From the IMG/VR virus record IMGVR_UViG_3300035501_000483: a stretch of 33,526 bases of DNA; one strand, 5' to 3'. Shown here piece by piece: positions 10,184 through 23,890 of this stretch; within the stretch, counting starts at the first letter, position 1, and each line of letters begins with the position of its first letter. This DNA is from a virus. The position numbers and the translations under genes are program-made. Below the pieces are notes generated by a model. It was not told the DNA's origin. It saw only the letters and a program-made list of their open reading frames with translations, and made no database searches.

Positions 10184-10189
10184 CAATTT

Positions 10190-10218
10190 TTGACATTTTA
10201 TGAAAAATATGTTATAAT
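10190..10218 (+). promoter_or_regulatory. Consensus sigma-A promoter (TTGACA, 17 bp, TGTTATAAT).
   Basis: Perfect -35 at 10190-10195 and extended -10 at 10210-10218. Confidence 0.65.
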
Positions 10219-10309
10219 TTTTATATGAATAAGAAAGGGAAAAAATTATGGATAATAATGTTTTAATTCTTATTGGAAATATTAAAAGGGCTGCAAAGAA
10301 GAGTGTATA

Positions 10310-10579
10310 ATGGCACGTAATAATAATTATACAGAACACAGTTTTTATTGCATTTGTTGCGGTAATCGAGGAATCCCTCTTATGCGGAAACAAGGTTTTC
10401 AGCATGAGAGATTTCATCGAAAGAAACTCTACTGTCCATTCTGTAAACAAGAAGTTAATCATATAGAGTGTAAAACACTTGAAGATATAGAAGAGTTTCA
10501 GAAAAATTTTGTTAATGGGGTGTATAGAGATGAAGCAGAAGAGAGTTTGGCTTTTGTGCGGGATTCCAGCGTCAGGTAA
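10310..10579 (+). CDS. Small zinc-finger protein.
   Basis: CICCGNRG ... CPFCKQEVNH Cys pairs. A 20-codon mini-ORF (10248-10310) precedes it. Confidence 0.45.
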   Translation: MARNNNYTEHSFYCICCGNRGIPLMRKQGFQHERFHRKKLYCPFCKQEVNHIECKTLEDIEEFQKNFVNGVYRDEAEESLAFVRDSSVR

Positions 10580-10991
10580 AAGCAGTTGGGCTGCTAGACA
10601 AAATGGTAATTGCATTTCTCGTGATACTGTCCGTTTTAGTATGGTGAATGAAAATGAAGAGTATTTTTCTAAAGAAGATGCTGTTTTTAATGAATTTATT
10701 CACCAAATTAATGAGTCTATTAATACTAATGAAGATACTTATATTGATGCAACTCATATTAATCAGCGCAGTCGAAATAAAACTTTGAATAGATTGAATC
10801 TTAAAGGTGTTGATATTTATGTGGTAAATTTTCTTACTTCTCTTGAAACTTGTCTTAAGCGCAATTCCAAAAGAGAAGGCAGAGCGCAAGTTCCTGAGTC
10901 TGTTATTCAAAATATGAATAACTCTTTTGTTCCTGCTTCCCCAAATGAAAAATATGAATATAAAAAAATTATTTATATTAAGGAGGTTTGA
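10530..10991 (+). CDS. P-loop kinase (AAA_33/polynucleotide-kinase-like).
   Basis: Walker A LLCGIPASGKSSWA. Overlaps the upstream ORF end. Its stop overlaps the downstream start. Confidence 0.55.
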   Translation: MKQKRVWLLCGIPASGKSSWAARQNGNCISRDTVRFSMVNENEEYFSKEDAVFNEFIHQINESINTNEDTYIDATHINQRSRNKTLNRLNLKGVDIYVVNFLTSLETCLKRNSKREGRAQVPESVIQNMNNSFVPASPNEKYEYKKIIYIKEV

Positions 10992-11551
10992 TGCTTATGA
11001 TTTTCGTGTCATCCGATTGGCACTTCTGGCACGATAAAGAATTTATCTGGAAAGCCCGAGGATTTAACAGTGTCCAAGAGATGAATGAAGCAATTATTTA
11101 TAGACATAATTCAAGAGTAATTGATTCTGATGATGTTTATGTTCTTGGAGATTTATGTTTGGGCGATCTTGAAGCTGGGAGAGAATGTATCTCTCAGATG
11201 AGGGGAAAGTTACATATCGTTCTTGGTAATCACGATACCTCTCGCCGCATTGAAATGTATAAGTCACTTCCAAATGTAGTTGAAATCGCAGATGCGCTCC
11301 GCATTGATTTTGGAAAGTATCATTTCATTGCAACACATTATCCTATGCTAACTGGAAATTTGGAAAAAGAATCTTTAAAGCGAATGACTCTCAATTTGCA
11401 CGGCCACACTCATTCTTCTAGCAAGTTTTATTATGAACTTCCTTACTGTTATCATGTGGGAGTAGATGCTCATGATTGTAAACCTGTGCAAATGGAAATT
11501 ATTTTAGAGGATATGAAAAATAAAGTATATGATTTGAACCTTGTTAATTAA
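10991..11551 (+). CDS. Metallophosphoesterase, translationally coupled to the kinase.
   Basis: Motifs SDWHFWHD, VLGDLCLGD and VLGNHD, with downstream His residues. ATG overlaps the kinase TGA (ATGA). Confidence 0.65.
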   Translation: MLMIFVSSDWHFWHDKEFIWKARGFNSVQEMNEAIIYRHNSRVIDSDDVYVLGDLCLGDLEAGRECISQMRGKLHIVLGNHDTSRRIEMYKSLPNVVEIADALRIDFGKYHFIATHYPMLTGNLEKESLKRMTLNLHGHTHSSSKFYYELPYCYHVGVDAHDCKPVQMEIILEDMKNKVYDLNLVN

Positions 11552-11569
11552 ATAAAAAGGAGATTATTT

Positions 11570-13009
11570 ATGAGTAGTATTATTACGCCCCATTTCATCA
11601 TTCCCGCCATTATTGTAATTGCGGTGATTGTAATTCTTGCTTCTGGATATTTGAAGGCACCGCCTGACCAAGCATATATTATTTCTGGGCTTGGGAAGAA
11701 ACCTAGGATTCTGGTCGGTCAAGCGGGAATTAAGATTCCTTTCTTTGAGCGAGTAGATAAGCTAGCTCTTGGTGCTGTTCAGATTGACGTAAAGACTTCT
11801 AGTGCGGTTCCTACTGCTGAGTATATCAATGTGCGAGTGGATTCCAATGTAAACGTACGGATTGGGCAGTCTACTGAAATGATTGAGCTTGCTGCTCAGA
11901 ATTTTCTGAACGTATCTCGTGGAGTGATTAATGATAAGGTACGTGACCTTCTGGAAGGTAATGTTCGTGAGATTGTGGGTAGCATGGCGCTGACTGACAT
12001 GGTTTCTGACCGTAAGGCATTTGCTGAAAAGGTTCAGGAAAATGCTGTTCCTGATTTGGCTCGTTTTGGTTTGGAACTGATTTCTTTTAATGTCCAGAAC
12101 TTCATTGATGATAATGGCGTAATTGAAAATCTTGGTATTGATAATGTGGAGCAAATTCGTAAGAAGGCTGCTATCGCAAAGTCTGATGCTCAGCGTGAAA
12201 TTGCTATTGCTGAAGCTAATAATGCTAAGACTTCTAATGATGCTAAGGTGCAGGCTGCAGAGGAAATTGCAAGTCGTAATAACGACCTGGCAATTAAGCA
12301 GGCTCAGTTGAAGCAGGAGGCTGATACTAAGCAGGCTCAGGCAGATGCAGCTAAGGAAATTGAGGCTGAGAACCAGCGTAAACTGCGTGATGTCGCTGCA
12401 ACTAATGCCAATATTGCTAAGGCTGAGCGTGAAGCTGAACTGAAGCAAAAGCAAATTGAACTTAAGGAATATGAGCTGGATGCTTTGGTGCGCAAGCAGG
12501 CTGATGCAGAAAAGTATGCTGCTGAGAAGCAGGCTGAGGCTGATTTGATTTCTCGCCAAAAGAAGGCAGAAGCAGAACGTTTCGAGCGTGAGCAGAAAGC
12601 TGAAGCTGATAAGTTTGCGGCTCTGCAAGAAGCTGAAGCTATGAAGGCTAAGGCTGATGCTACTAAGTATGCGGCCTTGGCTGAAGCTGAAGGTATTGCA
12701 GCCAAGGGTTCTGCAGAAGCTGAGGCCATTGATAAGAAGGCAGAAGCCCAGAAAAAGATGGGTGAAGCATCTGTCCTGGAAATGTACTTTGACGCGCTCC
12801 CTGAAGTTGTTAAGCAAGCTGCCATCCCTCTTGCTAATGTGGATAGAATTACTATGTACGGGTCTGATAATTCCACTAAGATGGTTGGAGACGTGATGCA
12901 GTCGGCTGACCAGATTATGGCTGCAGTATCCAATGCTACGGGCATTGATATGAAGACTGTGATTGCTAGTTACCTTGGTAGTAAGGGTGCTCAGAATACT
13001 GAAGAGTAA
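11570..13009 (+). CDS. Flotillin-like SPFH/band-7 membrane protein with a long EA-repeat coiled coil.
   Basis: N-terminal TM helix (IIPAIIVIAVIVILA), SPFH-like body, then an approximately 200-aa A/E/K-rich coiled coil. RBS AAAGGAG. GC-richer than surrounding genes. Confidence 0.6.
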   Translation: MSSIITPHFIIPAIIVIAVIVILASGYLKAPPDQAYIISGLGKKPRILVGQAGIKIPFFERVDKLALGAVQIDVKTSSAVPTAEYINVRVDSNVNVRIGQSTEMIELAAQNFLNVSRGVINDKVRDLLEGNVREIVGSMALTDMVSDRKAFAEKVQENAVPDLARFGLELISFNVQNFIDDNGVIENLGIDNVEQIRKKAAIAKSDAQREIAIAEANNAKTSNDAKVQAAEEIASRNNDLAIKQAQLKQEADTKQAQADAAKEIEAENQRKLRDVAATNANIAKAEREAELKQKQIELKEYELDALVRKQADAEKYAAEKQAEADLISRQKKAEAERFEREQKAEADKFAALQEAEAMKAKADATKYAALAEAEGIAAKGSAEAEAIDKKAEAQKKMGEASVLEMYFDALPEVVKQAAIPLANVDRITMYGSDNSTKMVGDVMQSADQIMAAVSNATGIDMKTVIASYLGSKGAQNTEE

Positions 13010-13021
13010 GATATATTTAAT

Positions 13022-13053
13022 GCGGTATAGATTTTTCTATACCGCATTTTTTT
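13022..13053 (+). terminator. Rho-independent terminator.
   Basis: GCGGTATAG-a-ttttt-CTATACCGC perfect hairpin plus a T7 run. Confidence 0.75.
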
Positions 13054-13135
13054 ATACTTCTACCCAGGCGCCCGGCGCGGCCGAGGTTTGGAAATTTTGC
13101 GCCTATAGAAATTTTTTTAGCAAAAGCCTCCAAAT

Positions 13136-13164
13136 TTGCTTTCTATACATTTTTATGCTATAAT
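13136..13164 (+). promoter_or_regulatory. Sigma-A-type promoter (TTGCTT, 17 bp, TGCTATAAT).
   Basis: Extended -10 at 13156-13164. Confidence 0.5.
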
Positions 13165-13198
13165 ATATATAGAAATAATAGTAGAAAGGAGTAGTATA

Positions 13199-13630
13199 AT
13201 GAAATATGAACCTATTTTTGAATGGGATGAAACCACAAGAACAGCAGTATGTATTCTAAGCGATGGCGAAAAATTATTTTATGGAACTGCTAATTGCCAT
13301 TCGGACGATGCAGATATGTGTAGTGAAAAAACTGGTTGTGAAATCGCTTTTAGACGAGCAAAAATTAAATATTATAGATATTATAGAGATTGCTTAAAAG
13401 AACGTAAAGCTGCGCTTCATCAATTATATTATTCTATAAATAAAAGTAAGAAATTTAATGAAAAATCTTATGAAAATAGAATGTTACAAAGACAAATTCA
13501 TATGATTGATTTTGATTTAAATACAGCTTATGAATTGTTAGCTAATGAAGAACAAGATTTAATAGAATATATTAAAAATAAAGATGAATTTTATAAAAAT
13601 ATACGAAAGAATCGAAAAGGCCAAAAGTAA
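13199..13630 (+). CDS. Hypothetical protein (143 aa).
   Basis: RBS AAAGGAG lies 8 nt before ATG 13199. The ORF-track start at 13136 was rejected because it lies inside the promoter. Confidence 0.5.
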   Translation: MKYEPIFEWDETTRTAVCILSDGEKLFYGTANCHSDDADMCSEKTGCEIAFRRAKIKYYRYYRDCLKERKAALHQLYYSINKSKKFNEKSYENRMLQRQIHMIDFDLNTAYELLANEEQDLIEYIKNKDEFYKNIRKNRKGQK

Positions 13631-13685
13631 GTAATGCTTATTTTTTAATTTCCATTATCTATGAAGGGCATATCCTGAAGAAGGA

Positions 13686-13943
13686 GTGGTTATTATAGTC
13701 TGGAGTTTCATGTTCGGTATAATTTTTATTGCATTTATTTATCCCATGATTGAATCTGGAGTTAATGTAATAATAACTTATTTAGAAATGGTCAAAGGTA
13801 AATTCACTGTTGAAATAACTAAAATGAATTTACAAATTTCAAAACTTGCAAATCCAGAAGAAGAGCAAAGTGTAACTCATGCTATCGGATTTGCAATACC
13901 AACCGAAGAAGAAGAGGAAGAGGCATATGAAGAAGATATATAA
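13686..13943 (+). CDS. Small membrane protein with an acidic C-terminus. Start is uncertain.
   Basis: ORF with an N-terminal hydrophobic segment and an EEEEEEAYEEDI tail. Overlaps the start of the next gene. Confidence 0.3.
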   Translation: MVIIVWSFMFGIIFIAFIYPMIESGVNVIITYLEMVKGKFTVEITKMNLQISKLANPEEEQSVTHAIGFAIPTEEEEEEAYEEDI

Positions 13944-15186
13944 ATTTTATGATACTTGCAGTTTGTTAATAAAAGCAGATTCTTTATTTGAAGATGAAGA
14001 CCATGTAATTATTTCTTCTATTACTTTAGATGAATTAGAAAATATTAAGACTTCCGCAAATAAAGATGCTGATGTAAAATATGCGGCCCGCAGACTATTG
14101 CATCTTTTGGATGAGCATCCTGACGCCTATGAGGTATGGATTTTCAAAAAGAGTATGCTTGAGCCAATTATTGAAAAAGACTTATCAATAACAAATGACA
14201 CTTCAATTTTAGCAACAGCTATTGATTATGATAAAAATTGTCATCCTGATGAAACAATTTTTGTTACTAATGATTTAGCATTAAAAAATATTGCTAATTT
14301 ATTTTTTGGAAATGATTCAATTGAAAGTGTCGAAGAAGAAGCTATAGATGATTATACTGGGTATCTTGAAATTACTATGTCAGATGACCTTATGTCAGAA
14401 TTTTACTCTCAACCATTTACTAATATGTTTAACTTAAAGGTTAATCAATATTTAGTAGTGTCAAATATGGATAATGAAATTGTAGATACTCTTTGCTGGA
14501 CTGGTGAAGAATATCGGCATCTTAATTATAAAAACTTTAGTTCTCGTTACTTTGGCGACGTAAAACCTTTTAAAGGAGATATTTATTAGGCAATACTCGC
14601 TGATAGCTTAATTAGTAACAAAATTACATTAGTAAAAGGCCCGGCCGGTTCTGGAAAAACTTATTTATCTCTTGCCTACTTACTTAGTCAATTGGATAAA
14701 GGAAAAATTGATAAAATCATAGTATTTTGTAATACAGTGGCGACTAAAGGATCTGCTAAACTGGGGTATTACCCTGGAACGCGAGACGAGAAGCTCCTTG
14801 ACTCGCAAATCGGCAATCTTTTAGCTAGTAAATTAGGTGGGCGTTTATTGGTTGAACAAATGATCCAACAAGAAAAATTAGTTCTTTTACCATTGAGTGA
14901 TATACGAGGTTATGATACTTCTGGAATGAATGCTGGAATTTATATCTCAGAAGCGCAAAATATGGATGTTAGTTTGATGAAACTTACATTACAAAGAATT
15001 GGCGATGACAGTATTTGTATTATTGATGGCGATTGTAAAACGCAAGTTGATAGTATTGAATACTCTGGGTCTAATAATGGTATGCGTCGTGCCTCTAAAA
15101 TCTTTAGAGGTGAAGACATTTATGGAGAAGTTACTTTAAAAACAATCCATCGCTCAAGAATCGCAGAAATTGCAGAAAATATGTAA
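13927..15186 (+). CDS. PhoH2/YlaK-like PIN-domain plus PhoH ATPase. One in-frame TAG (14587-14589) is read as sense.
   Basis: PIN-like N-terminus (KIYKFYDTCSLL...). After the TAG, the same frame continues into the PhoH Walker A motif VKGPAGSGKT and an SEAQN box. RBS GAGGAAGAGG. Confidence 0.7.
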
Positions 15187-15192
15187 ATTATT

Positions 15193-15231
15193 AAAGACTT
15201 AGAATTTTTAATTCTAAGTCTTTAATTTTTG
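15193..15231 (+). terminator. Rho-independent terminator.
   Basis: AAAGACTTAGAATT-ttta-ATTCTAAGTCTTT hairpin plus T-run. Confidence 0.7.
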
Positions 15232-15249
15232 CTAAAAAGAAGGTAAAAA

Positions 15250-15879
15250 ATGGCAAATCCAAATTCACAATATACTTCAAATTTAAATTTAGAATTGATT
15301 TATGAAGGAACTAAAGTTGATAATGATTTATTCAATGATAATTTTACTAAAATTGATACCGCTCATGGAAATCATTTTACAGTGGCTTTGATTCCTTTTT
15401 CAACCACTCCTACTTTATTATATGATGGATCTAGTTCAAAGACATATACTGTTGATCTTCCTACTCCAATTATTATTCCTGATGAAACTTGGAGAATAAA
15501 AATTTATTATTTTGGAACTGCATGGAATAATTATCCTTCAACCACTACCTCATATACTCATTCAAATCTTGATTTGAATTATTATACTACAAAATCTCGC
15601 AGGGAAACAATTAGTTATCCAGAATCTGCGAGTAAAAAAACAGAGTCTGGTGGTTCTCCATATGACAATTATTAGGAAGAAATATTTCTAACAGAAGGTC
15701 GTAGAATAGTATTACCGCGTACAGGAACAATTAATGGGACTTGTGTAACTGGTAATACTTTCCAATGGGCAACTTCTACAATAGATTCAGCTACTTATAC
15801 ATCTATATCTATTGTTGGTAGTAATCCAACTTATTAGCCCATTATACATGGATTATATGCCGAATTCACTAAATTCTAA
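15250..15879 (+). CDS. Tail-fibre/receptor-binding-like protein, paralogue 1. Two in-frame TAGs are read as sense.
   Basis: RBS AAGAAGGT. The N-terminal motif NLNLELIYEGTKVDNDLFNDNFTKID is shared with the 17635 and 18200 genes. The frame runs through TAG at 15673 and about 15832 to TAA 15877-15879. Confidence 0.5.
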
Positions 15880-15897
15880 AGAAGGGAGAAGATTTAA

Positions 15898-16302
15898 TTG
15901 AAATATAGTTCAAGTAATAAACCATTACAATGTATGATGACAAATAGTACTTGTTATAAAGGTACTACAACAATGACGATTAAAGGTGTTTTATGGCATA
16001 GTACTGGAGCAAATAATCCCAATTTAAAAAGATATGTTTAGCCCAGTTCTAATGACCCCAATTATAAAACACTAATCAGCAAGATTGGTAAAAATACCAA
16101 TAATAGTGATTGGAATCATATTGAACGTGAAGCTGGTTTGAATTGCTGGATTGGTAAGCTGGCTGATGGAACTGTGGCCACTGTATAGACAATGCCTTGG
16201 AATTATAAACCGTGGGGTTGTGGTAAAGGTTCTAAAGGGTCTTGTAACAACGGGTGGATTCAATTTGAGATTGACTCTTCAAACAGTCTCCGTATAGAGT
16301 AA
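15898..16302 (+). CDS. N-acetylmuramoyl-L-alanine amidase (Amidase_2/T7-lysozyme fold) endolysin, exon 1. Two in-frame TAGs are read as sense.
   Basis: GVLWHSTGANNP compared with T7 lysozyme IFVHCSATKP; DGTV; NGWIQFEI compared with NSIGVCLV. RBS GAAGGGAG. As drawn, ends at TAA 16300; the true 5' splice site lies a few codons upstream. Confidence 0.55.
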
Positions 16303-16667
16303 TCTGTATGTTAAAATATGCATTGAATTGCTGGGAACTCCTAAAGCTATATCTACCACAACAGAAAGATGAAATAAGCTTAAATGTGAAGGTTACGAAA
16401 GTAGAAAAAAAGATATAGATGGCACAAGGTTAAATCCTAAATGTTTGAATAATGGACAATCAGCAGCGAAGTCTCGAATAGAGAAACGTTCAACGACTAT
16501 CCTGTAAAGGAGTAGATTATATTGTCAGATATAATCGAAGTGGTGCACTCCATTTATTAATGGATGAAGATATAGTCTGTACTTTATTGAAAAATAAAGA
16601 GATTAAGAATAATCAAGTATAAAGAAATTTGACAAATTTCATTTAAAAAAATACTTTAACAAAATAG
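16303..16667 (+). ncRNA. Putative group I self-splicing intron in the endolysin gene. Boundaries are approximate, plus or minus 20 nt.
   Basis: About 365 nt with stops in all frames, separating two same-frame halves of one Amidase_2 domain. Contains the group I J8/7-P7 signature AAGATATAGTC (16568-16578) with a complementary GACTATC at 16495-16501. A CTTTATT-GAAA-AATAAAG tetraloop hairpin (16582-16599) sits immediately 3', in a P9-like position. Confidence 0.5.
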
Positions 16668-17217
16668 ATGTGAAGATGATTTAAACGATGAGACCTATTT
16701 TAACAAAGTTTATAAAGAAGCTTGTGAAATTACAGCTTATTTATGTAAATTATACAACATTGACCCTAATGGAACTACAACTTTTAATGGTGTAAAAGTT
16801 CCAACAATTTTATGTCACCATGATAGTTATACATATGGCCTTGGCTCTAATCATGCGGATGTTACTCACTGGTTTCCAAAATTTGGAAAAAGCATGGCCA
16901 CAGCCAGAAATGATGTAGCTAATTTAATGAATGGAGTTACTTCCACTTCTACTTCAGTATCTACATCTACATCAAAAATTACACCAATTAATAAAGAGGA
17001 GGATGAAGACATGACTCAAGAAAAATTTAATGAAATGATGACTAGTTATATCAATACTCTTGCGGAAAAAGATGCTACATTTGAGAAAGACGCAATGGAA
17101 TGGGCTAATGCTAATGGTTTAATTAGTGGCGACGATAAAGGCCGATTAATGCCTAAAAAGTTTTTGACTCGTGGAGAAATGGCTGTTATCCTAAAGCGTT
17201 ACAACGAGAAAAAGTAA
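16668..17217 (+). CDS. Endolysin exon 2: Amidase_2 C-terminal catalytic segment, Ser/Thr linker and SLH-like cell-wall-binding module.
   Basis: ILCHHDSYTYGLGSNHADVTHW compared with T7 lysozyme LRAHHEVAPKACPSFD. The tail EWANANGLISGDDKGRLMPKKFLTRGEMAVIL fits the SLH consensus. Same reading frame as exon 1. No ATG/RBS of its own precedes the domain start. Confidence 0.5.
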
Positions 17218-17244
17218 ATTAATTTCCAGAAAGAAGGATAATTT

Positions 17245-17553
17245 ATGAAAAAAAATAAACATGAATTTTCCAAAGCGCTCTTAATCCAAGAGTCAATATT
17301 GATATGGATTATTTCTTTATCCTTCATTATTCTCGCATTTTACTGCATTAAACAAGGCTTTACTGGCTCTTTGCCATGGCTTGCCGCAATGGTTAGTTTC
17401 CCCTGGACAGCATATGGCGTGAGTCAAGCTTTCTATTATAATAAAGCTAAAGCCGAAAATACTACAGAACATGGTATTGCTTACCATGAAATGATGACAT
17501 CACGTTCTAGTGATGAAGAAGATTCCTCTATTGATACAGATTATGGAATCTAA
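17245..17553 (+). CDS. Holin.
   Basis: Small protein with two TM helices and a charged C-terminus, immediately downstream of the endolysin. RBS AGAAGGA. Confidence 0.55.
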   Translation: MKKNKHEFSKALLIQESILIWIISLSFIILAFYCIKQGFTGSLPWLAAMVSFPWTAYGVSQAFYYNKAKAENTTEHGIAYHEMMTSRSSDEEDSSIDTDYGI

Positions 17554-17557
17554 AAGT

Positions 17558-17622
<65 letters not shown>

Positions 17623-17634
17623 TGAGGAAATAAA

Positions 17635-18168
17635 ATGGCAACATCAAAAACTGAAAACCTTGGATTAAATGTTTTCTCAACTGGAGATAAAATTTTAGCA
17701 AGTGAAATAAATACAAATTTTTAGACTTTGGAGGATAATATAGATATGAGTGCTAAAATAGTGGGGACTGCGCATGATGGAGGTAGTGCAACATCATTTA
17801 CAATTACTTTACCTACTACAGATTATGATTATTTGACAGTGAAGATAGAATGTCCTATACCTTGGATATTTAGTAATTATGGGTTAACGTCACCATCAAC
17901 ATCTCCTTATCGTATTTATACTATTAAAAAACCTTCTTCTAGTTACACTTTTTATTTTAAAACTCTAAATGAGACATATTAGTTGAGAAATAGTTCCTCA
18001 AGTAGTTATGCTTATTATTACTATTCTGTTTTAGACGCTTTAAAAAATCAAACAGGCGTGTTAGACGGATCTACCCTTACTCTTTCAAATTTTTATAGTA
18101 AAATATATGGGATGTCAACTGAATACCCTTACTACGCTATCGAAGTAGTCCAATATAAATATAGCTAA
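17635..18168 (+). CDS. Tail-fibre/receptor-binding-like protein, paralogue 2. Two in-frame TAGs are read as sense.
   Basis: ATG 17635 with RBS GAGGAAA. ENLGLNVFSTGDKILASEINTNF-Q-TLEDN is the shared N-terminal motif. One frame continues across TAG at 17722 and 17980 to TAA. The C-terminus YAIEVVQYKYS is shared with the next gene. Confidence 0.55.
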
Positions 18169-18199
18169 TCAAATTCTCCAAAGGAGGTAATATTATAAT

Positions 18200-18723
18200 A
18201 TGTCCGAATTAAATGTTTTTTCTAGTGGACAAAAAATCACAGCGCAAGAAATAAATGAAAATTTTTCAATTTTACAAGGAGGAATTAGTGTGAATGCAAA
18301 GATCGTTGGAACGGTACACGGGGGGGGGCTCCTACTAGCAGTAACTCATCACTTTCTGTAACATTACCCACTACAGATTATGATTTTTTAACTATTAGAT
18401 TAAGATATCCTGATATAGCAAAATACACTGCCCCCCCCAATACTAATTATGGCTCCTATGCTATAGGTAGTTTTGTTTCAAATAGTGATATCTGTACTAT
18501 AATAAAACCTTCTTCTTCATATACTTTTTATTTAAAAATTCCTTCATACGATAGTGGATATACGTTAAAAATTTATAATAATATATTAATAGGAAACGGA
18601 GAAAATGCTACTGGGACACTCGATAATGATACTTTAACAATATCAAACCTTTATAGAATTGGAGTATATTATTAGGACCCTTTGACTTACACTATCGAAG
18701 TAATCCAATACAAATATTCTTAA
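18200..18723 (+). CDS. Tail-fibre/receptor-binding-like protein, paralogue 3. It requires a -1 shift at a G9 tract (18320-18328) and contains an in-frame TAG.
   Basis: RBS AAGGAGG. The N-terminus MSELNVFSSGQKITAQEINENF and C-terminus YTIEVIQYKYS are paralogous to the 17635 gene. A zero-frame stop occurs 10 codons after the G9 run. The -1 frame carries the conserved remainder, including a C8 tract at about 18431-18438. Confidence 0.45.
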
Positions 18724-18761
18724 GGAACAGATTTTACAAATCTGTTCCTTAATTTTTTTTA
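18722..18761 (+). terminator. Rho-independent terminator.
   Basis: AAGGAACAGATT-ttacaa-ATCTGTTCCTT hairpin plus a T8 run. Confidence 0.75.
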
Positions 18762-18784
18762 TCTAACTCTATAGAGTTAGATAT

Positions 18785-18812
18785 TGATTTTCCTAAAAAT
18801 CTTTGATATAAT
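18785..18812 (+). promoter_or_regulatory. Sigma-A-type promoter (TTGATT, 16 bp, TGATATAAT).
   Basis: Member of the repeated promoter family. Confidence 0.55.
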
Positions 18813-19078
18813 ATATATAGTAATAAAAGAAGAAGTAAATTTTAAAGGAGAGTAATTCTTATTTGTAATTATAATATTATCCATCTCGATGTAGGTGATA
18901 CTCTAATTGCTCATATAACTGATGAAGTTAATATAGAATAGGCTAAAGAAATATATGATTATTTAAGTAGAATATTTCCTAATAATAATATATGTATGCT
19001 ATAGGATTATTTAATTTCAGGATTAACTGTTGTAAAAAACAAAGACTTAAATGGAAATATATTTCTATAGGAGAATAT

Positions 19079-19567
19079 ATGATTATATACACAGATGGTT
19101 CTTGTCGAAAAAATGGCAAAGAATCTAATCAAGGTGGATTCGGAGTAGTTGTACTTGACAATAATGAAAATTTAATATACAATTATAGTAAGAGTTGTGA
19201 AAATACAACTAATAATAGAGAAGAAATCAAAGCTATATTATATAGCTTTTTTAAATATGGAGTAAACATTAATAAAGAAGAATTTACTAATGATATTCCT
19301 ATTGTATATAGTGATTCTAATTATTGTGTTCAAACATTTAATCAATGGATGTTCAATTGGGCACAAAATAATTGGATTAAATCTGATAAAAAGCAACCAG
19401 AAAATCTTGACTTAATTCAAGCATATTATGATTGGTATCAAAAAGGTTATAGAATTGATTTAAGAAAAGTAAAAGCTCACACAGGACAAAAGGATTTTAA
19501 CTATTATGCAGACATGTTAGCTACTGGAAAAATGAGTTCTGAAGAGGTGAATAAAATAAATGGATAA
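19079..19567 (+). CDS. rnhA: Ribonuclease H (RNase HI).
   Basis: MIIYTDGSC..., ...SDSNY, ...KAHTGQKDFNYYADMLA (DEDD/H motifs). RBS AGGAGAA. Confidence 0.75.
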   Translation: MIIYTDGSCRKNGKESNQGGFGVVVLDNNENLIYNYSKSCENTTNNREEIKAILYSFFKYGVNINKEEFTNDIPIVYSDSNYCVQTFNQWMFNWAQNNWIKSDKKQPENLDLIQAYYDWYQKGYRIDLRKVKAHTGQKDFNYYADMLATGKMSSEEVNKING

Positions 19568-21455
19568 TAAAAAATTATATGATGAAAATTCAATCGTAAG
19601 CCTTGATCCAAGAGAATTTACTAGACTTAGACCTGGCGTATATGTTGGCTCTACTGAATATTCAACTCAACTTTTAATTGAAATTGTATCTAATGCAATT
19701 GATGAGTATAAAGCTGGACATGGAGATACTATTCAAGTTGCTATTGGAGAAGATAACAGTATTCGAGTAGAAGATAATGGCCAAGGTTTTTTGATTAATT
19801 CCAAAAGAGAAGATGGAAAAACCATTCTCGAAGCAGCTTTTAGTGTTCTAAATACAAGTGGTAAGTATAGTGAAGATGGCGTTTATGAAGGTACAGCTTT
19901 AGGCTTGAATGGTATCGGTAGTAAATTGCCAACTTTTTTGTCTCATTGGCTTGAAGTAATTACTTATAGAGACGGACAATTTGAACAAATCACATTTGAA
20001 GAAGGTATTTTTAAGAATAGAAAAGTTGGAGAATGCTCTGATAAAAATTCTGGTACCATAGTTCATTGGTTGCCTAGTGAAGAGTTTTTTACTCATATAG
20101 AAGTCGATAATAATGTTATTAAAAATTTATTTTCAGTATTAGTTTGCTTATGTCCTGGATTAAAAATCGTTTATGAAGAAAAAGGTAATAAAACTGAATA
20201 TTATTCTAAAAACGGTTTGAATGATTTGGTTGACAAAGCTGTTCAAAATAAAGAAATTCTTAGAAATCGTTTTTCTATGAATTTTTCTGAAGGTAAAAAT
20301 AAATTAGATTTAGTTCTTACTTATACTGATTCTTATTCAGCTACTATTGTTCCTTATGTAAATACAGGCTTAACTGATAGCGGTCCTCATATTACACAAA
20401 TTAAAACTTTATTAACCAGAGAGATGAATAAGTTCTTTAGAGATAAAGGATGGCTTAAAGATAAAGATGAAAATTTTTCTGGTGAAGATATAAATGAAGG
20501 ACTTTATATGGTATTTAATATGACAGCTCCAGGAGTAGCATATGATGCTCAAACGAAATCCAGAGTAGTTAAGCTGGATACACATCCTTTTACTGCAGCC
20601 ATTGTTGAAGAATTGCAATATTGGCTTGCCAATAATGAAAAAGAAATTAAAAAGATAGCGGAAAAGGCATTAAATGCACGCAAGGCTCGTGAAGCTGCTC
20701 GTAAAGCTAGAGATTTGGCGCGAGGAGTTAAAACTAAAAAAGAATCAGGATTAAAAGCAAAAATGCAACTTAGCAATAAGTTCATTGATTGCTCTAATAA
20801 AAATCCCAATCAACGCAATTTACTTCTTGTAGAAGGATTGTCTGCAGGATCTGCCGCTGTTGAAGCTAGGAACCCTAAAACTGATTGTATTTATATGTTA
20901 AGAGGTAAAACAGTGTCTCCGCTAAAACAAAGTGTTGATAAAATTCTAGCTAATCAAGAAATGAGCGATATTATTCGTGTTATTGGCGCAGGATTTAACA
21001 ATGATTTTGAAATTGATAAAATGAATTTTGATAAAATTGTTATTACAAGTGACCAAGATGCTGATGGCATGAGTATTGAATTGCTTTTGACTACATTTTT
21101 TTACACCTATATGCGTCCTCTAGTTGAATCTGGTAAGTTATATAGAGCTGTTACACCATTATATATTATTCGTCAAAAAGGTAATGAATATTACTGTTAT
21201 ACTGATGATGAGCTTGAAGAGTGGAAAAAATCTCATAATGGCAGTTTTGATCTTCTTAGAGCAAAAGGTTTAGGAGAATTAAATGCGGCTGATTTGCAGA
21301 AAGTATGTTTTGAACAAGAAAGGTTTAAACGTATTACTGTTTCAGATGCTAAAAAAACTACTCAACTATTGGAAGTTCTCATGGGTAGTGCTGTTGAACC
21401 TCGCAAGAGATATATTTATGAAAATGCTACAGAACTTGGATTTAACTTTGATTAA
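19560..21455 (+). CDS. gyrB: Type II topoisomerase ATPase subunit (GyrB/ParE-like).
   Basis: N-terminus YDENSIVSLDPREFTRLRPGVYVGS, GHKL ATPase and TOPRIM (EGLSAGSA...) motifs. 631 aa, typical Gram-positive length. Confidence 0.85.
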   Translation: MDNKKLYDENSIVSLDPREFTRLRPGVYVGSTEYSTQLLIEIVSNAIDEYKAGHGDTIQVAIGEDNSIRVEDNGQGFLINSKREDGKTILEAAFSVLNTSGKYSEDGVYEGTALGLNGIGSKLPTFLSHWLEVITYRDGQFEQITFEEGIFKNRKVGECSDKNSGTIVHWLPSEEFFTHIEVDNNVIKNLFSVLVCLCPGLKIVYEEKGNKTEYYSKNGLNDLVDKAVQNKEILRNRFSMNFSEGKNKLDLVLTYTDSYSATIVPYVNTGLTDSGPHITQIKTLLTREMNKFFRDKGWLKDKDENFSGEDINEGLYMVFNMTAPGVAYDAQTKSRVVKLDTHPFTAAIVEELQYWLANNEKEIKKIAEKALNARKAREAARKARDLARGVKTKKESGLKAKMQLSNKFIDCSNKNPNQRNLLLVEGLSAGSAAVEARNPKTDCIYMLRGKTVSPLKQSVDKILANQEMSDIIRVIGAGFNNDFEIDKMNFDKIVITSDQDADGMSIELLLTTFFYTYMRPLVESGKLYRAVTPLYIIRQKGNEYYCYTDDELEEWKKSHNGSFDLLRAKGLGELNAADLQKVCFEQERFKRITVSDAKKTTQLLEVLMGSAVEPRKRYIYENATELGFNFD

Positions 21456-21466
21456 GGAGAAAATAT

Positions 21467-23848
21467 ATGAGTCTAATAACAGAAGTAGATATTCTTGATG
21501 AAGCTAAAGAAAATTTCTTGACATATGCAGAAGAAGTCTTAACTGATAGAGCCATTCCAGCGGCGGAAGATGGTCTTTTAAGTGCTCAAAGAAAAATTCT
21601 ATGGACAATGGAAGATTATCTTAATATGAGCAATAAGAGTAAAACAAAAAAGTGTAATGCGATAGTAGGATCGACTCTTTCAACATCATACTATCACGGG
21701 GATGCTTCTTGCTATGGCGTTCTTTGTAAAATGTCTCAAGAGTATCTTATGAGGTATCCTTTAATTCAGGGGCAAGGATCTCTTGGAACGCAAGAAAATA
21801 ATGAAATGGTCGCGTCCAGTCGTTACACAGAGGCCAGACCTTCTGCATATGCTGATATTATGATGAACGACTTTAAAAAGAATGTTGTTCCTCTGAAAGA
21901 AACGTACAATGGAGAGTTTATGGAACCTGTTGTTCTACCTGCGCTTTTCCCTAATGCGATCTGTAATGGCAGACAAGCGATCGGTATTTCCATGGCACAT
22001 AATAGTGCACCGCACAATTTAACAGAAGTATGTAATGCAGCAATTGCATTAATCCAAAAAGGAAATTTAACAGTTGATGAAATTCTTACTTATATTCCTG
22101 GCCCTGATTTTCCTCTTGGAGGCACTGTTTTAAATAAAAAAGATATTAAAGAAGCATTTGCTACTGGTAAATCCAATGTTTCTTTAAAAATTCAAGGCGA
22201 TTATGAAATTGATGGCCAAAAAATTATTTTTACAACAATTCCATATAGAACTTATAGAAATAAAATTAAAGAGCAAATTGAAAAAAATATTGATGTATTA
22301 AGCGAAATTATTGATGATTTTGATGATAATTCTAATATTGGGCAAAATAGATTAGTATTTTATGTAAAAGACGGCATTTCACCTGCTAAAGCTATTAATA
22401 AATTATTCGCTTTAACAGATTTACAAACCACTTTGTCATATAATATGAACTATATTGTTAATGGCACTCCTAAATTATGTTCTATGTTAAACCTATTACA
22501 AACTTATATAAATCATCAAGAAAATGTACTTATTAAAGCAACTGAATTTGATAAAGAAAAAGCTGAAGCAAGAGCACATATTTTAAAAGGTTTGATTGCC
22601 GCAGTCGATAAGATTGATGAAGTTATTAAATTAATTAAAGAATCTGCGGGAAGAGCTGAAGCTAAAGAAAAGCTAATTAGTTTTTTATCTATTGATGATA
22701 TTCAAGCAAGCGCAATCTTAGATATGAAGCTTGGTAAACTAACTCGAATTGATAAAGAAGAATTAGTTAATGAATTAACTGAAAAAGAAAAATTTATTGC
22801 TTATTGTATTGAAGTTCTAACTAATAAAGAAATTAGAAATCAAGAGTTGATTTCTCGTATTACTAAATTGCGTGATACATATGGTGATGAACGTAGAACG
22901 AAAATTATTCAAGCTGAGACTTCAAAAGATGAAGATGAAACTGCATATGTTGAACCTGAAAAGTGCGTTGTTGTAATGACAGAAAGCGGTTTAATTAAGC
23001 GTGTGCCGACCGCATCTTTCCGCACTCAGCGTCGCAATGGCAAGGGTGTCCGCACGCAAGATGATATTACATCTATGGTTATCCGCACTAATACAATTGA
23101 TTCACTAATGGTATTCACTGACCAAGGAAGAATGTATCGTTTACTTGTAAATGATATTCCTGTTGGAAATAATACGGCAAAAGGCCAATCTGTTAAGTCT
23201 CTAATTGCAATGGAAACAGATGAAAATCCTACTGTAATTTACTCTATCTATAGAGATACAGATGCTAAATATGTTTTATTTACAACAAAGAATGGTCTTG
23301 TCAAGAAAACATCTTTGGATGAATATGTCAAAACTAAGAAAAAGACAGGCATTGCAGCCATTAATATTAAAGATGGTGATGAACTTGTTTCTGTGAATTT
23401 GATTAAAGATGAGCCTGTTGTAATTATCACTAAGAACGGTTATGCTATTAAGTTTAATTCTAATGAGATAGGACAAACATCTCGTACCACTTCTGGAGTA
23501 AAAGGTATTAACTTAAATGATGATGATAGTGTTATCACTACTTTGGTAGTAAGACATAATAGTGATAATTTAGCAATTATTTCTGAGCAAGGTCTTGGTA
23601 AGCAATTTGCTTTAAATGAAATTACTCTCCAGAAGCGAGCAGGTAAGGGATTGATGTGTTATAAACCTTCTACTGCAAGTGGTAATGTAGCTGCGGCAGC
23701 TCTTATTTGTGATGAAGATAATATCTTAATTTGTGGGGATAAGAATTCTTTGTGCATTGCCGCTAAAGAGATTCCTACTCTTGGAAGAGCTTCTATTGGG
23801 AATCAATTAATCAAGAGTAATAAAGTTAAATCTATTAGCAAAGTATAA
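21467..23848 (+). CDS. gyrA: Type II topoisomerase DNA breakage-reunion subunit (GyrA/ParC-like).
   Basis: AIPAAEDGLLSAQRKILW with active-site SSRYTEAR. RBS AAGGAG. Confidence 0.85.
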   Translation: MSLITEVDILDEAKENFLTYAEEVLTDRAIPAAEDGLLSAQRKILWTMEDYLNMSNKSKTKKCNAIVGSTLSTSYYHGDASCYGVLCKMSQEYLMRYPLIQGQGSLGTQENNEMVASSRYTEARPSAYADIMMNDFKKNVVPLKETYNGEFMEPVVLPALFPNAICNGRQAIGISMAHNSAPHNLTEVCNAAIALIQKGNLTVDEILTYIPGPDFPLGGTVLNKKDIKEAFATGKSNVSLKIQGDYEIDGQKIIFTTIPYRTYRNKIKEQIEKNIDVLSEIIDDFDDNSNIGQNRLVFYVKDGISPAKAINKLFALTDLQTTLSYNMNYIVNGTPKLCSMLNLLQTYINHQENVLIKATEFDKEKAEARAHILKGLIAAVDKIDEVIKLIKESAGRAEAKEKLISFLSIDDIQASAILDMKLGKLTRIDKEELVNELTEKEKFIAYCIEVLTNKEIRNQELISRITKLRDTYGDERRTKIIQAETSKDEDETAYVEPEKCVVVMTESGLIKRVPTASFRTQRRNGKGVRTQDDITSMVIRTNTIDSLMVFTDQGRMYRLLVNDIPVGNNTAKGQSVKSLIAMETDENPTVIYSIYRDTDAKYVLFTTKNGLVKKTSLDEYVKTKKKTGIAAINIKDGDELVSVNLIKDEPVVIITKNGYAIKFNSNEIGQTSRTTSGVKGINLNDDDSVITTLVVRHNSDNLAIISEQGLGKQFALNEITLQKRAGKGLMCYKPSTASGNVAAAALICDEDNILICGDKNSLCIAAKEIPTLGRASIGNQLIKSNKVKSISKV

Positions 23849-23852
23849 TCGT

Positions 23853-23890
23853 AAGGGGAAGTGTTTGTGCTTCCCCTTATTGATTTTTCT
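23853..23890 (+). terminator. Rho-independent terminator.
   Basis: AAGGGGAAG-tgtttgtg-CTTCCCCTT hairpin plus T-run. Confidence 0.7.

What the first reader, a model, noticed from the sequence alone, without database searches (positions are those of the whole stretch)
15898..17217. A group-I-like intron splits the endolysin (Amidase_2 plus SLH-like) gene.
Two ORFs in the same reading frame encode the N-terminal two thirds and the C-terminal third of one T7-lysozyme-type amidase domain.
They are separated by about 365 nt (16303-16667) that contain stops in every frame.
That spacer carries the group I intron J8/7-P7 consensus AAGATATAGTC (16568-16578), identical to the Tetrahymena element, with a complementary GACTATC upstream (16495-16501).
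A GAAA-tetraloop hairpin sits immediately 3', in a P9-like position.
The second half has no start codon or RBS of its own.
Introns in phage lysin genes are known but uncommon. Here the intron also sits in an amber-recoded late gene.
Basis: partly seen in the sequence, partly recalled or inferred. Interest (0 to 1): 0.7.

Follow-up and report, generated by a model that had tools for sequence, protein, structure and literature searches.

The report
Self-splicing intron splits phage endolysin gene
A 396-base group I (self-splicing) intron without an endonuclease gene interrupts the cell-wall amidase (endolysin) gene of an uncultured phage that reads TAG as glutamine; it is a well-supported but ordinary new example of a known kind of element.

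Summary
Rfam's group I intron model matches window 16267-16599 end to end (63.2 bits, cut-off 50, E 6e-14).

The intron is 16272-16667 (396 nt), not 16303-16667. The 5' splice site follows U16271, the U.G wobble of P1 (GAGAUUG/CAGUCUC), and the intron ends with G16667.

Joining 15898-16271 to 16668-17217 gives a 307-aa Amidase_2 + SLH protein. Its junction, GWIQFE-I-CEDD, is invariant in 23 aligned uninterrupted homologues (67-74% identical). Both in-frame TAG codons fall on invariant glutamines.

A syntenic relative (L004, 79% aa) lacks exactly these 396 nt. A second genome (L059) carries the intron at 98.5% identity, with a U-A to C-G compensatory change in P7.1 and 10 synonymous against 3 non-synonymous exon changes.

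Across five related introns, 96.5% of cells are paired and 38 of 80 pairs covary. P7.1 and P7.2 place it in subgroup IA, IA2-like. It has no endonuclease ORF and no IS.

Its nearest ribozyme relatives are Enterocloster, Bacillus and Staphylococcus phage introns and the Clostridium phage IStron. Lysin-gene introns and introns in recoded phages are both already described, so this is a new member of a known kind. Splicing itself is inferred, not shown.

The parts
15882..15888 (+). Shine-Dalgarno-like AAGGGAG, 9 nt upstream of the TTG start codon
   Evidence: Read directly from the sequence. Inference only.
15898..16271 (+). Exon 1 of the endolysin gene. It has a TTG start and encodes residues 1-124 plus the first two bases of the Ile125 codon. 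This is the N-terminal two thirds of the Amidase_2 domain.
   Evidence: Translation. The N-terminus MKYS... coincides with the start of homologues P0005, P0007 and P0030. Pfam Amidase_2 covers residues 26-177 of the joined protein.
16039..16041 (+). In-frame TAG (codon 48), read as Gln
   Evidence: It aligns with Q in VQPS, which is invariant in 23 homologues. The same TAG is present in L059 and in the intron-less L004.
16186..16188 (+). In-frame TAG (codon 97), read as Gln
   Evidence: It aligns with Q in VQTMPW, which is invariant in 23 homologues. L004 has a normal Gln codon at this position.
16272..16667 (+). Group I intron, 396 nt, of the IA type, with no ORF. It ends with the terminal G (omega-G) at 16667.
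   Evidence: Rfam RF00028 scores 63.2 bits against a cut-off of 50, matching model positions 1-253. The same stretch is a clean 396-nt indel relative to the syntenic L004. It is 98.5% identical to the copy in L059. The longest internal ORF is 36 aa.
16267..16290 (+). P1. Exon bases GAGAU plus intron bases UG (16267-16273) pair with the internal guide sequence CAGUCUC (16284-16290). [quoted passage not shown]
   Evidence: All 7 pairs are standard pairs. The in-frame UAA at 16300-16302 follows shortly after, in the P2 loop.
16294..16307 (+). P2, a 5-bp hairpin with a GUAA loop
   Evidence: helix 1.
16319..16325 (+). P3 5' strand. It pairs with 16541-16547.
   Evidence: 4 of 6 pairs show compensatory changes across five related introns, and 100% of cells are paired (helix 2).
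16329..16465 (+). The P4-P5 domain. P4 is 16329-16334 with 16460-16465. P5 is 16339-16341 with 16454-16456. The roughly 100-nt P5 extension comprises a stem 16347-16354/16411-16418, a three-way junction with 16355-16357/16391-16393 and 16361-16368/16379-16387, a GAAA hairpin at 16394-16403, and a hairpin at 16421-16445.
   Evidence: RNAalifold and pair counts (helices 3-9). The extension is the hallmark of a subfamily with at least 120 copies in viral contigs.
16466..16489 (+). P6 (16466-16468/16487-16489) and P6a (16472-16475/16481-16484)
   Evidence: helices 10-11. 4 of 7 pairs show compensatory changes.
16495..16500 (+). P7 5' strand (GACUAU, part of the R element GUUCAACGACUA). It pairs with 16572-16577.
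   Evidence: The five pairs counted, 16495-16499 with 16573-16577, are invariant in all five relatives (helix 12).
16500..16536 (+). P7.1 (16500-16503/16508-16511, GUAA loop) and P7.2 (16515-16523/16528-16536), inserted between P7 and the 3' strand of P3
   Evidence: All 4 pairs of P7.1 and 5 of 6 pairs of P7.2 covary (helices 13-14). The window and L059 differ by a U-A to C-G double change in P7.1. 25 of 36 distinct subfamily segments fold into three hairpins, read as P7.1/P7.2/P8.
16541..16547 (+). P3 3' strand
   Evidence: helix 2.
16549..16564 (+). P8, a 6-bp hairpin (UCCAUU/AAUGGA)
   Evidence: The stem sequence differs between relatives but the hairpin is kept.
16565..16577 (+). J8/7 and the P7 3' strand (UGAAGAUAUAGUC, the S element)
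16582..16656 (+). The P9 domain: P9 (16582-16599, GAAA loop), P9.1 (16601-16614) and P9.2 (16615-16656). A single-stranded stretch, UAACAAAAUAG, follows.
   Evidence: P9 is supported (helix 15, 5 of 7 pairs covary). P9.1 and P9.2 rest on thermodynamic folding only. The differences from L059 in this region fall in loops.
16668..17217 (+). Exon 2. It supplies the third base of the Ile125 codon and residues 126-307: the C-terminal third of Amidase_2 (including invariant H175, D177, H187 and D189), a Ser/Thr-rich linker and one SLH repeat. The stop codon is TAA at 17215-17217.
   Evidence: Pfam SLH covers residues 258-297 at 31.2 bits against a cut-off of 20.8. There is no in-frame start codon before 16894.

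Best explanation
The endolysin gene (15898-17217, + strand) is interrupted by a 396-nt group I intron (16272-16667). The intron is of the phage-typical IA, IA2-like, architecture and carries no endonuclease gene.

Proposed mechanism:
1. In the pre-mRNA the internal guide sequence (16284-16290) pairs with the end of exon 1 to form P1.
2. A free guanosine bound in P7 attacks the bond after U16271, the U of the U.G wobble.
3. The freed 3'-OH of U16271 then attacks the bond after the terminal G16667 and joins the exons as ...GAG AU|A UGU GAA....
4. The spliced mRNA encodes a 307-aa N-acetylmuramoyl-L-alanine amidase (Amidase_2) with one SLH cell-wall-binding repeat.
5. Full-length translation also needs both in-frame UAG codons (48 and 97) to be read as glutamine.

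Without splicing, translation would stop at the UAA at 16300-16302, in the P2 loop. That would give a 134-residue fragment lacking the exon-2 part of the catalytic domain.

The insertion site lies in the codon next to the invariant Glu124. This residue corresponds to E90 of the Bacillus anthracis prophage amidase PlyL.

What is shown here: the ribozyme architecture, the exact junction, the existence of alleles with and without the intron, and purifying selection on both exons. What is inferred: splicing chemistry and timing, enzymatic activity, and how the intron arrived (homing or reverse splicing).
For: - The Rfam Intron_gpI match is full length at 63.2 bits (cut-off 50), E 5.9e-14, and is the only family to reach its cut-off in 33.5 kb. 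Nothing else credible appears near it in a permissive scan.
- P1, with the U16271.G16286 wobble, and the terminal G16667 are in exactly the register that restores the reading frame.
- The joined protein aligns over 100% of its length with uninterrupted proteins. There are 7443 hits with E <= 0.001, the best 66-70% identical.
- The junction motif WIQFEICED is invariant.
- Pfam finds Amidase_2 (3.8e-11) and SLH (2.1e-7) in the joined protein.
- The syntenic relative L004 is 85.8% identical over 3.4 kb upstream and has the gene uninterrupted. BLAST breakpoints flank exactly 396 nt.
- An independent assembly, L059, carries the same intron at 98.5% identity. Its six differences are one compensatory U-A to C-G pair in P7.1 plus changes that I place in loops or unpaired stretches.
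- The exons of the window and L059 differ by 10 synonymous and 3 non-synonymous codons, spread over both exons.
- Across five related introns, 96.5% of cells are paired against 32-42% in shifted registers. 38 of 80 pairs show double changes, and 0 of 500 shuffles reach this. RNAalifold independently recovers P2-P6, P7.1, P7.2 and P9.
- Exon 2 has no start codon of its own before 16894.
- E124 aligns with the Glu of PlyL. That position is Ala in PDB 2AR3, against Glu in 1YB0.
Against: - No RNA data exist, so splicing is inferred.
- P10 is weak. Exon 2 positions +2 to +4 (UGU) can pair with ACA 16283-16285, but this is one base out of register.
- The minimum-free-energy fold of the whole intron is only modestly better than shuffles (z -1.83) and does not by itself give the pseudoknotted core.
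- P9.1, P9.2 and P9.0 have no covariation support.
- No suppressor tRNA is present in the window, so how UAG is read cannot be shown here.
- The intron is rare. It occurs in 1 of 160 related lysin loci examined, and two metagenome scans found no further copy. Long-term maintenance therefore cannot be judged.
Confidence: 0.9

Rival explanations
1. The ribozyme is real but no longer splices. On this view the endolysin gene is a pseudogene inactivated by the insertion, and lysis relies on another enzyme encoded elsewhere in the genome.
For: There is no experimental evidence of splicing. P10 is weak. The intron is confined to two very close genomes, so the insertion could be recent. The window is only part of the genome, so a second lysin cannot be excluded.
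Against: All core elements are intact (P, Q, R and S elements, P1 wobble, terminal G) and the model match is full length. The only paired-region difference between the two copies is compensatory. The exons show 10 synonymous against 3 non-synonymous changes and no frameshift or new stop on either side of the intron. The holin-like gene follows directly.
Confidence: 0.05
2. The splice sites lie one base further 3': the intron is 16273-16668 and the exons join as GAGAUU|UGUGAA. This gives the same protein but reproduces the ATT Ile codon seen in most uninterrupted alleles.
For: 10 of 11 intron-less alleles inspected have GA(R)ATT TG(Y) and one has ATC. UGU 16669-16671 could pair in register with ACA 16283-16285 as a P10.
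Against: It would put an A, not a G, at the intron's 3' end, and a U-A pair, not U.G, at the 5' splice site. From established knowledge of group I introns, both features are almost universal. Uninterrupted alleles with ATA at this codon do exist, in 16 viral stretches, so the canonical junction needs no special pleading.
Confidence: 0.04
3. No RNA splicing takes place. The two halves are made as separate polypeptides that assemble, or ribosomes bypass or frameshift across the spacer.
For: The two pieces are in the same frame. Split enzymes and translational bypassing (T4 gene 60) are known in phages, from general knowledge.
Against: Exon 2 has no in-frame start codon for 78 codons of conserved amidase sequence. 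The gap is 396 nt with 4-13 TAA/TGA stops in each frame. The gap is a full-length group I ribozyme whose boundaries restore an invariant motif to the base.
Confidence: 0.01
4. The insert is an IStron or another DNA transposon remnant rather than a conventional intron.
For: The P3-P7 region is 82.7% identical over 185 nt to an element in Clostridium phages c-st and D-1873. I take this element to be the ribozyme of IStron CbISt4, which PMC4227781 places in those two phages. The Bacillus relative L003 carries transposase ORFs and a RAGATH-18 RNA.
Against: There is no IS part, no ORF longer than 36 aa and no RAGATH-18 match in the window. The target (after GAGAU) and the 3' end (AUAG) do not fit the group A or group B IStron termini described in PMC4227781. 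The 3' tail shows no meaningful similarity to the relatives that carry an endonuclease gene or an IS.
Confidence: 0.01

Closest known systems
[quoted passage not shown]
   Same: A group I intron interrupts a phage lysin gene. According to the paper's title, shortened (deletion) derivatives of the intron also circulate in that lysin gene.
   Different: The host and phage lineage differ. The paper could not be read here, so the subgroup and insertion site were not compared. No stop-codon recoding is involved there, as far as I recall.
Kayvirus and Twort-like Staphylococcus phage group I introns (phage K, 812, phiIPLA-RODI). [quoted passage not shown]
   Same: The ribozyme is detectably homologous: 68-71% identity over intron nt 10-229 to the tail-tube gene introns. 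Non-coding (ORF-less) introns occur there too, and one Kayvirus intron sits in the endolysin gene.
   Different: The host genes and insertion sites differ. The Staphylococcus copies did not reach the Rfam cut-off in my scan. Those phages use the standard code.
Nearest ribozyme relatives: the Enterocloster phage CB457P2-type intron with an I-TevI-like endonuclease gene, the Bacillus phage vB_BceH_LY2 portal-gene intron, and the Clostridium phage c-st / D-1873 element that I take to be IStron CbISt4 (classed IA2 in PMC4227781)
   Same: 75-83% identity across P3-P7, including the distinctive ~100-nt P5 extension. The P7.1-GUA-P7.2-GAAGUGG-P8 layout is the same, and covariation is extensive.
   Different: Those elements carry a GIY-YIG endonuclease gene or IS607-type transposase genes downstream of the Rfam-matched core and sit in other genes. 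The window's intron has only a 68-nt tail and no ORF, and P1 is specific to the lysin exon.
Introns in stop-codon-recoded gut phages: crAss-like Delta and Zeta groups (PMC7886860) and Agate phages (bioRxiv 10.1101/2021.08.26.457843)
   Same: A self-splicing intron and in-frame recoded stop codons occur in the same gene or genome. An intein is also present in this window. Lysis genes are preferentially recoded.
   Different: Those cases were recognised through intron-encoded endonuclease domains, and sit in MCP, PolB, primase or an early gene. Here an ORF-less intron sits in the endolysin of a phage whose lysin relatives come from Oscillospiraceae and other Clostridia, not Bacteroidetes.

Membership tests
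Group I intron (Rfam RF00028) | Covariance-model score at or above the curated gathering score | tested here: met
   63.2 bits against 50, model positions 1-253 of 253, E 5.9e-14. The L059 copy gives the same score.
Group I intron (Rfam RF00028) | A conserved core of P3-P8 helices with the P3/P7 pseudoknot and the P, Q, R and S sequence elements | tested here: met
   AAUUGCUGGGAAC, AAUCAGCAGC, GUUCAACGACUA and AAGAUAUAGUC all align to the consensus. 80 pairs are 96.5% paired, 38 have double changes, and shifted registers give 32-42%. P7 itself never varies, so it is neither supported nor contradicted by covariation.
Group I intron (Rfam RF00028) | P1 formed by an internal guide sequence and the 5' exon, with a U.G wobble at the 5' splice site | tested here: met
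   7 standard pairs join 16267-16273 to 16284-16290, and U16271.G16286 lies at the frame-restoring position. This is sequence-level evidence only.
Group I intron (Rfam RF00028) | A terminal guanosine (omega-G) immediately before the 3' splice site | tested here: met
   G16667 precedes exon 2. It is the only G that, together with U16271, restores the frame and the invariant Cys126.
Group I intron (Rfam RF00028) | Guanosine-initiated self-splicing | not testable with these tools
   This needs an in vitro GTP-labelling assay or RT-PCR.
Subgroup IA2 (as characterised in PMC4227781) | Two hairpins, P7.1 and P7.2, in domain 7 | tested here: met
   P7.1 is 16500-16511 and P7.2 is 16515-16536. 9 of 10 pairs show compensatory changes, there is a double change between the window and L059, and 25 of 36 distinct subfamily segments fold into three hairpins, read as P7.1/P7.2/P8.
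Subgroup IA2 (as characterised in PMC4227781) | An extended domain 9 with P9.0, P9.1 and P9.2 | tested here: inconclusive
   Two hairpins after P9 (16601-16614 and 16615-16656) are predicted by energy alone (z -2.0). There is no covariation, and P9.0 was not identified with confidence.
Mobile (homing) group I intron | An intron-encoded homing endonuclease ORF | tested here: not met
   The longest ORF inside 16272-16667 is 36 aa. There are stops in all frames and no meaningful similarity between the 3' tail and relatives that carry an endonuclease gene.
IStron | An IS element with transposase ORF(s) fused to the 3' end of the ribozyme | tested here: not met
   No such ORF exists and there is no RAGATH-18 match in the window, although the ribozyme is 82.7% identical over 185 nt to the Clostridium phage element I take to be CbISt4.
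Amidase_2 (PF01510) endolysin with SLH anchor | The joined product scores above the Pfam cut-offs and is colinear with uninterrupted family members | tested here: met
   Amidase_2 scores 43.9 bits (cut-off 26) and SLH 31.2 bits (cut-off 20.8). Coverage is 100% at 66-70% identity with the best database hits and 79% with L004. 120 invariant columns include H34, E124, H175, D177, H187 and D189.
Amidase_2 (PF01510) endolysin with SLH anchor | Peptidoglycan amidase activity and a role in lysis | not testable with these tools
   This is inferred from homology (PlyL, PDB 1YB0) and from the adjacent 102-aa ORF (17245-17553). I read that ORF as a two-hydrophobic-segment, holin-like protein, but it matches no family.
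TAG-to-Gln recoded phage (genetic code 15) | In-frame TAG codons at positions where homologues have conserved Gln | tested here: met
   Codons 48 and 97 align with invariant Q. In the window, 10 of the 31 other + strand ORFs carry 1-8 in-frame TAGs while the long replication genes carry none. The PhoH match spans its TAG.
TAG-to-Gln recoded phage (genetic code 15) | A suppressor tRNA(CUA) or other code-change machinery | tested here: inconclusive
   ARAGORN finds no tRNA in the 33.5-kb window. The rest of the genome is not available.

The most novel reading that the evidence does not exclude
The intron and the two amber codons in exon 1 may act together as a two-key delay on lysis. Before the suppressor appears, ribosomes would stop at codon 48 and never reach the intron, leaving the ribozyme free to fold. 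Active endolysin would then need both splicing and the late code switch.

A related possibility concerns mobility. This ORF-less intron could be mobilised in trans by one of the genome's free-standing endonucleases, which are themselves heavily amber-recoded (GIY-YIG ORF at 26580-27536, 8 TAGs). That would be 'collaborative homing' timed by the code switch.
Probability: 0.1. Interest if true: 0.6.

Novelty: new member of a known kind. Interest (0 to 1): 0.3.

Why it matters
Practically, this is an annotation trap. Gene callers will split this endolysin into three or four fragments, because of two TAG codons and one intron, and so miss a complete Amidase_2-SLH lysin aimed at gut Clostridia. The exact exon coordinates given here allow the enzyme to be reconstructed.

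Biologically, it adds a clean pair of alleles, one with and one without the intron, in syntenic genomes. It places an ORF-less intron next to the catalytic Glu codon of a lysis gene in a TAG-recoded phage. It also shows that a ribozyme subfamily with a distinctive P5 extension is shared by endonuclease-bearing introns, an IS-bearing element (apparently the IStron CbISt4) and ORF-less introns across many Firmicutes phages.

None of this overturns current understanding.

Tried and rejected
- A megablast of window 10000-25000 against 50,697 phage records found no match, so the phage has no close cultured relative.
- Two metagenome scans with intron-specific 30-36-mers returned nothing.
- An exact-protein look-up of the window's DNA ligase found no contig on record, so the full genome and sample could not be recovered.
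- The minimum-free-energy fold of the whole intron does not reproduce the core, as expected for a pseudoknot, and is only z -1.83. I relied on the covariance model and covariation instead.
- MAFFT mis-registers P8 and P1 between distant relatives. I dropped P8 and P1 from the pair count and checked P8 per sequence by folding.
- The 3' tail (16600-16667) shows no real similarity to the 3' regions of relatives carrying an endonuclease gene or an IS, so I cannot say whether an ORF was lost.
I used the sequence alignment to PlyL instead.
- A permissive Rfam scan of 15100-17700 found no riboswitch or other RNA next to the intron, which rules out a c-di-GMP-gated ribozyme arrangement.
- The consensus promoter scan found no more sites than in shuffled sequence (11 against a mean of 15), so it is uninformative.
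- The Foley 2000 paper is not held.
Full report
**Observation.**
- An ORF opening with TTG at 15898, preceded by AAGGGAG, runs in one frame through two TAG codons (16039-16041 and 16186-16188) to a TAA at 16300-16302.
- The same frame is open again from 16660 to a TAA at 17215-17217. It has no ATG, GTG or TTG before 16894.
- The stretch in between has 4-13 TAA/TGA stops in each frame.
- GACTATC is at 16495-16501, and its first six bases pair with 16572-16577.
- A 7-bp hairpin with a GAAA loop follows at 16582-16599.

**Is it a group I intron?** Yes.
- A scan of the whole window, both strands, against all 4227 Rfam families gave one hit at gathering level. It is Intron_gpI at 16267-16599 on the + strand, at 63.2 bits against a cut-off of 50. 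E is 5.9e-14, model positions 1-253 of 253 are matched, and the match is not truncated.
- The alignment shows the four classical conserved elements: AAUUGCUGGGAAC, AAUCAGCAGC, GUUCAACGACUA and AAGAUAUAGUC.
- It also shows two large insertions relative to the consensus: about 100 nt in the P5 loop and about 40 nt between P7 and the 3' strand of P3.
- A permissive scan of 15100-17700 found nothing else credible, and in particular no riboswitch upstream.

**Splice sites.**
- GAGAUUG (16267-16273) pairs with CAGUCUC (16284-16290) in seven standard pairs. The only wobble is U16271.G16286. In group I introns this wobble marks the 5' splice site (established knowledge; also stated in PMC4227781).
- With exon 1 ending at U16271, the frame requires exon 2 to start at a position equal to 0 modulo 3. 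The G at 16667 is the terminal G that satisfies this.
- Joining 15898-16271 to 16668-17217 gives 924 nt and 307 codons, reading ...GWIQFE-I-CEDDLNDETYF....
- An alternative one base to the 3' side would give the same protein. It needs a terminal A and a U-A pair at the splice site, so I rank it low.
- Uninterrupted alleles with ATA at this Ile codon exist in 16 viral stretches. The canonical junction therefore needs no special explanation.

**The joined protein is a complete endolysin.**
- Pfam finds Amidase_2 at residues 26-177 (43.9 bits, cut-off 26) and one SLH repeat at 258-297 (31.2 bits, cut-off 20.8).
- A database search returned 7443 proteins with E <= 0.001. The best are 66-70% identical over 100% of the query, and all are uninterrupted.
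- In alignments of 10 and of 23 homologues (67-74% identical in the larger set) the junction block I121-D128 (IQFEICED) is invariant and W120 is nearly so.
- Both TAG positions fall on Q in VQPS and VQTMPW. These Q positions are conserved in the first alignment and invariant in the second, so TAG is read as Gln.
- Exon 1 carries about two thirds of the amidase domain. Exon 2 carries the rest, including invariant H175, D177, H187 and D189.
- E124, whose codon immediately precedes the split Ile codon, aligns with E90 of the B. anthracis prophage amidase PlyL. In PDB 2AR3 that position is Ala. The intron therefore sits at a conserved active-site motif, as group I introns commonly do.

**Alleles with and without the intron.**
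- I examined 80 viral loci encoding relatives. Only L059 (IMGVR_UViG_3300035498_000700; the same contig was fetched again as L084) contains the insert.
- None of 80 loci from bacterial genomes and MAGs contains it. These come mostly from Oscillospiraceae and other gut Clostridia, which points to the likely host range.
- L004, the closest allele without the intron (79% aa), is syntenic with the window at 85.8% identity over 3.4 kb upstream. BLAST aligns L004 4375|4376 to window 16272|16669, a clean 396-nt indel. L004 also has a TAG at codon 48, so it comes from a recoded relative.
- L059 is 95.7% identical to the window over 8.2 kb, and its intron is 98.5% identical.
- The six intron differences comprise one coordinated U-A to C-G change in P7.1 (UCCU/AGGA becomes UCCC/GGGA). 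I place the other four changes in the P7.1, P7.2 and P9.1 loops and in an A-run within P9.2.
- The exons differ at 13 codons, 10 of them synonymous, spread across both exons.
- This is the pattern expected if both the ribozyme structure and the full-length protein are under selection. It argues against a dead gene or an assembly artefact.

**Architecture and relatives.**
- blastn finds partial similarity to the intron in 289 phage records.
  - Best is 75.5% over intron nt 52-328 in Enterocloster phages. There the element is followed by an I-TevI-like endonuclease gene.
  - Next is about 82% over nt 44-243 in Bacillus phage LY2, in the portal gene with transposase ORFs, and in Clostridium phages c-st and D-1873.
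  - PMC4227781 lists an IA2-class IStron, CbISt4, in those two Clostridium phages. I take it to be this element.
  - Kayvirus and Silviavirus tail-tube gene introns are 68-71% identical.
- RNAalifold on five of these sequences recovers the following:
  - P2, P3, P4 and P5;
  - a P5 extension made of a long stem, a three-way junction with a GAAA hairpin, and a further hairpin;
  - P6/P6a, P7.1, P7.2 and P9.
- I then counted a curated structure of 80 pairs, with P7 written as a pseudoknot.
  - 96.5% of cells are paired, against 32-42% when the 3' partners are slid by 1-3 columns.
  - 38 pairs have changes on both sides.
  - 0 of 500 shuffles reach the observed values.
  - The shuffle control overstates significance for related sequences, but the slid-register control does not share that weakness.
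- P7.1 and P7.2 lie between P7 and the 3' strand of P3. Among 36 distinct subfamily segments, 25 fold on their own into three hairpins, read as P7.1-P7.2-P8, with differing stem sequences.
- These hairpins are the feature PMC4227781 gives for class IA2. The other feature, P9.0/P9.1/P9.2, is supported here only by energy-based folding of 16578-16667.
Only L084 lies in this lysin.
- The ribozyme subfamily is therefore common. Its presence in this gene is rare.

**What it is not.**
- It carries no homing endonuclease or transposase. The longest internal ORF is 36 aa.
- It has no IS part and none of the RAGATH-18 RNA seen next to the IS-bearing relatives.
- Its termini do not fit the IStron target rules.
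- It is thus an ORF-less conventional group I intron. How it reached this site is open: homing driven by an endonuclease acting in trans, reverse splicing, or later loss of an ORF. The 3' tail shows no meaningful similarity to relatives that carry an ORF.

**Context.**
- The gene sits between terminator-like hairpins at 15190-15226 and 17557-17598.
- Within that unit, an unknown 209-aa ORF (15250-15879, 2 TAGs) lies upstream. A 102-aa ORF with two hydrophobic segments (17245-17553) lies downstream. The latter is holin-like by inference only, since no family matched.
- Beyond these are PhoH, RNase H, gyrase B and A-like genes and an NAD-dependent ligase, none with in-frame TAG except PhoH, which has one.
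- In the window, 10 of the 31 other + strand ORFs carry 1-8 in-frame TAGs, and all 31 end in TAA or TGA, as the ORF definition requires. No tRNA gene is present.
- This partial recoding, concentrated in some genes including the lysin, matches what Borges et al. describe for recoded gut phages. 'Late gene' remains an inference.

**Mechanism (inferred).** The pre-mRNA folds, guanosine attacks after U16271, and exon 1 then attacks after G16667. The ligated mRNA is translated with UAG read as Gln into the amidase. An unspliced transcript would terminate at the UAA in the P2 loop, after 134 residues.

**Novelty.**
- Group I introns in phage lysin genes have been known since 2000 (the S. thermophilus reference; Kayvirus lysis genes).
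- Introns and inteins in stop-codon-recoded phages have also been described.
- This is therefore a new, cleanly documented member of a known kind.
- Its mildly unusual aspects are the combination of an ORF-less intron, two amber codons and an endolysin in a Clostridia-type phage, and its close kinship with what appears to be an IStron ribozyme.
- Interest is about 0.3.

Noticed in passing
window 6160-8565 (+): An 801-aa ORF is an RNA-ligase-like protein interrupted by an intein with a LAGLIDADG endonuclease. The N-terminus matches the PHA02142 OB fold and the C-terminus matches RNA_ligase, both below the Pfam cut-off. The Hint and intein splicing domains span roughly residues 185-549 and LAGLIDADG_2 spans 303-474. 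This is a second selfish element in the same window.
   Followed up: partly
window 26580-27536 and 27539-28465 (+): Two adjacent ORFs carry 8 and 6 in-frame TAG codons, the highest density in the window. The first has a C-terminal GIY-YIG homing-endonuclease domain (Pfam 1.3e-10; PHROG homing endonuclease). The second has repeated CxCxCG motifs and a weak DUF2726 match. A free-standing, heavily recoded endonuclease could act in trans on ORF-less introns.
   Followed up: partly
window 43-2070 (+): A 675-aa protein matches the eukaryotic-type Major Vault Protein shoulder domain (1.5e-22) and a vault repeat (3.7e-8). This is unusual for a phage.
   Followed up: no
window 11570-13009 (+): A 479-aa SPFH/Band 7 plus flotillin-like protein with an N-terminal hydrophobic stretch.
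   Followed up: no
window 17557-17625: A 17-bp inverted repeat, TATATATATAGGGAAAC...GTTTCCCTATATATATA, runs into a (TA)n tract of about 20 units directly after the holin-like ORF. It is terminator-like on the - strand by the scan. It attracts only chance miRNA-model hits.
   Followed up: no
window 15250-15879, 17635-18168 and 18200-18361 (+): Small ORFs flanking the lysis genes share an N-terminal motif (...NLxLN.FS.G.KI.A.EIN.NF...). The first two each contain two in-frame TAGs, and neither matches Pfam or PHROGs. The first has no DNA similarity to the syntenic L004, so it is a variable cassette, possibly tail-fibre-like.
   Followed up: no
L002 4309-4378 and L003 4083-4146: RAGATH-18 RNA motifs (61.7 and 70.9 bits) lie just downstream of the transposase ORFs in the Clostridium and Bacillus phage elements whose ribozymes are the window intron's relatives. 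The Bacillus LY2 portal-gene element therefore looks like an IStron, although it is annotated only as 'transposase'.
   Followed up: no
homologues P0001, P0004, P0008 and others: Most close homologues, many on contigs of about 145-149 kb, carry an extra N-terminal domain (PF18013 or PF21277) fused upstream of the MKYS... start. The window's gene, and P0005, P0007 and P0030, start exactly at that internal Met. This points to domain shuffling in this endolysin family.
   Followed up: no
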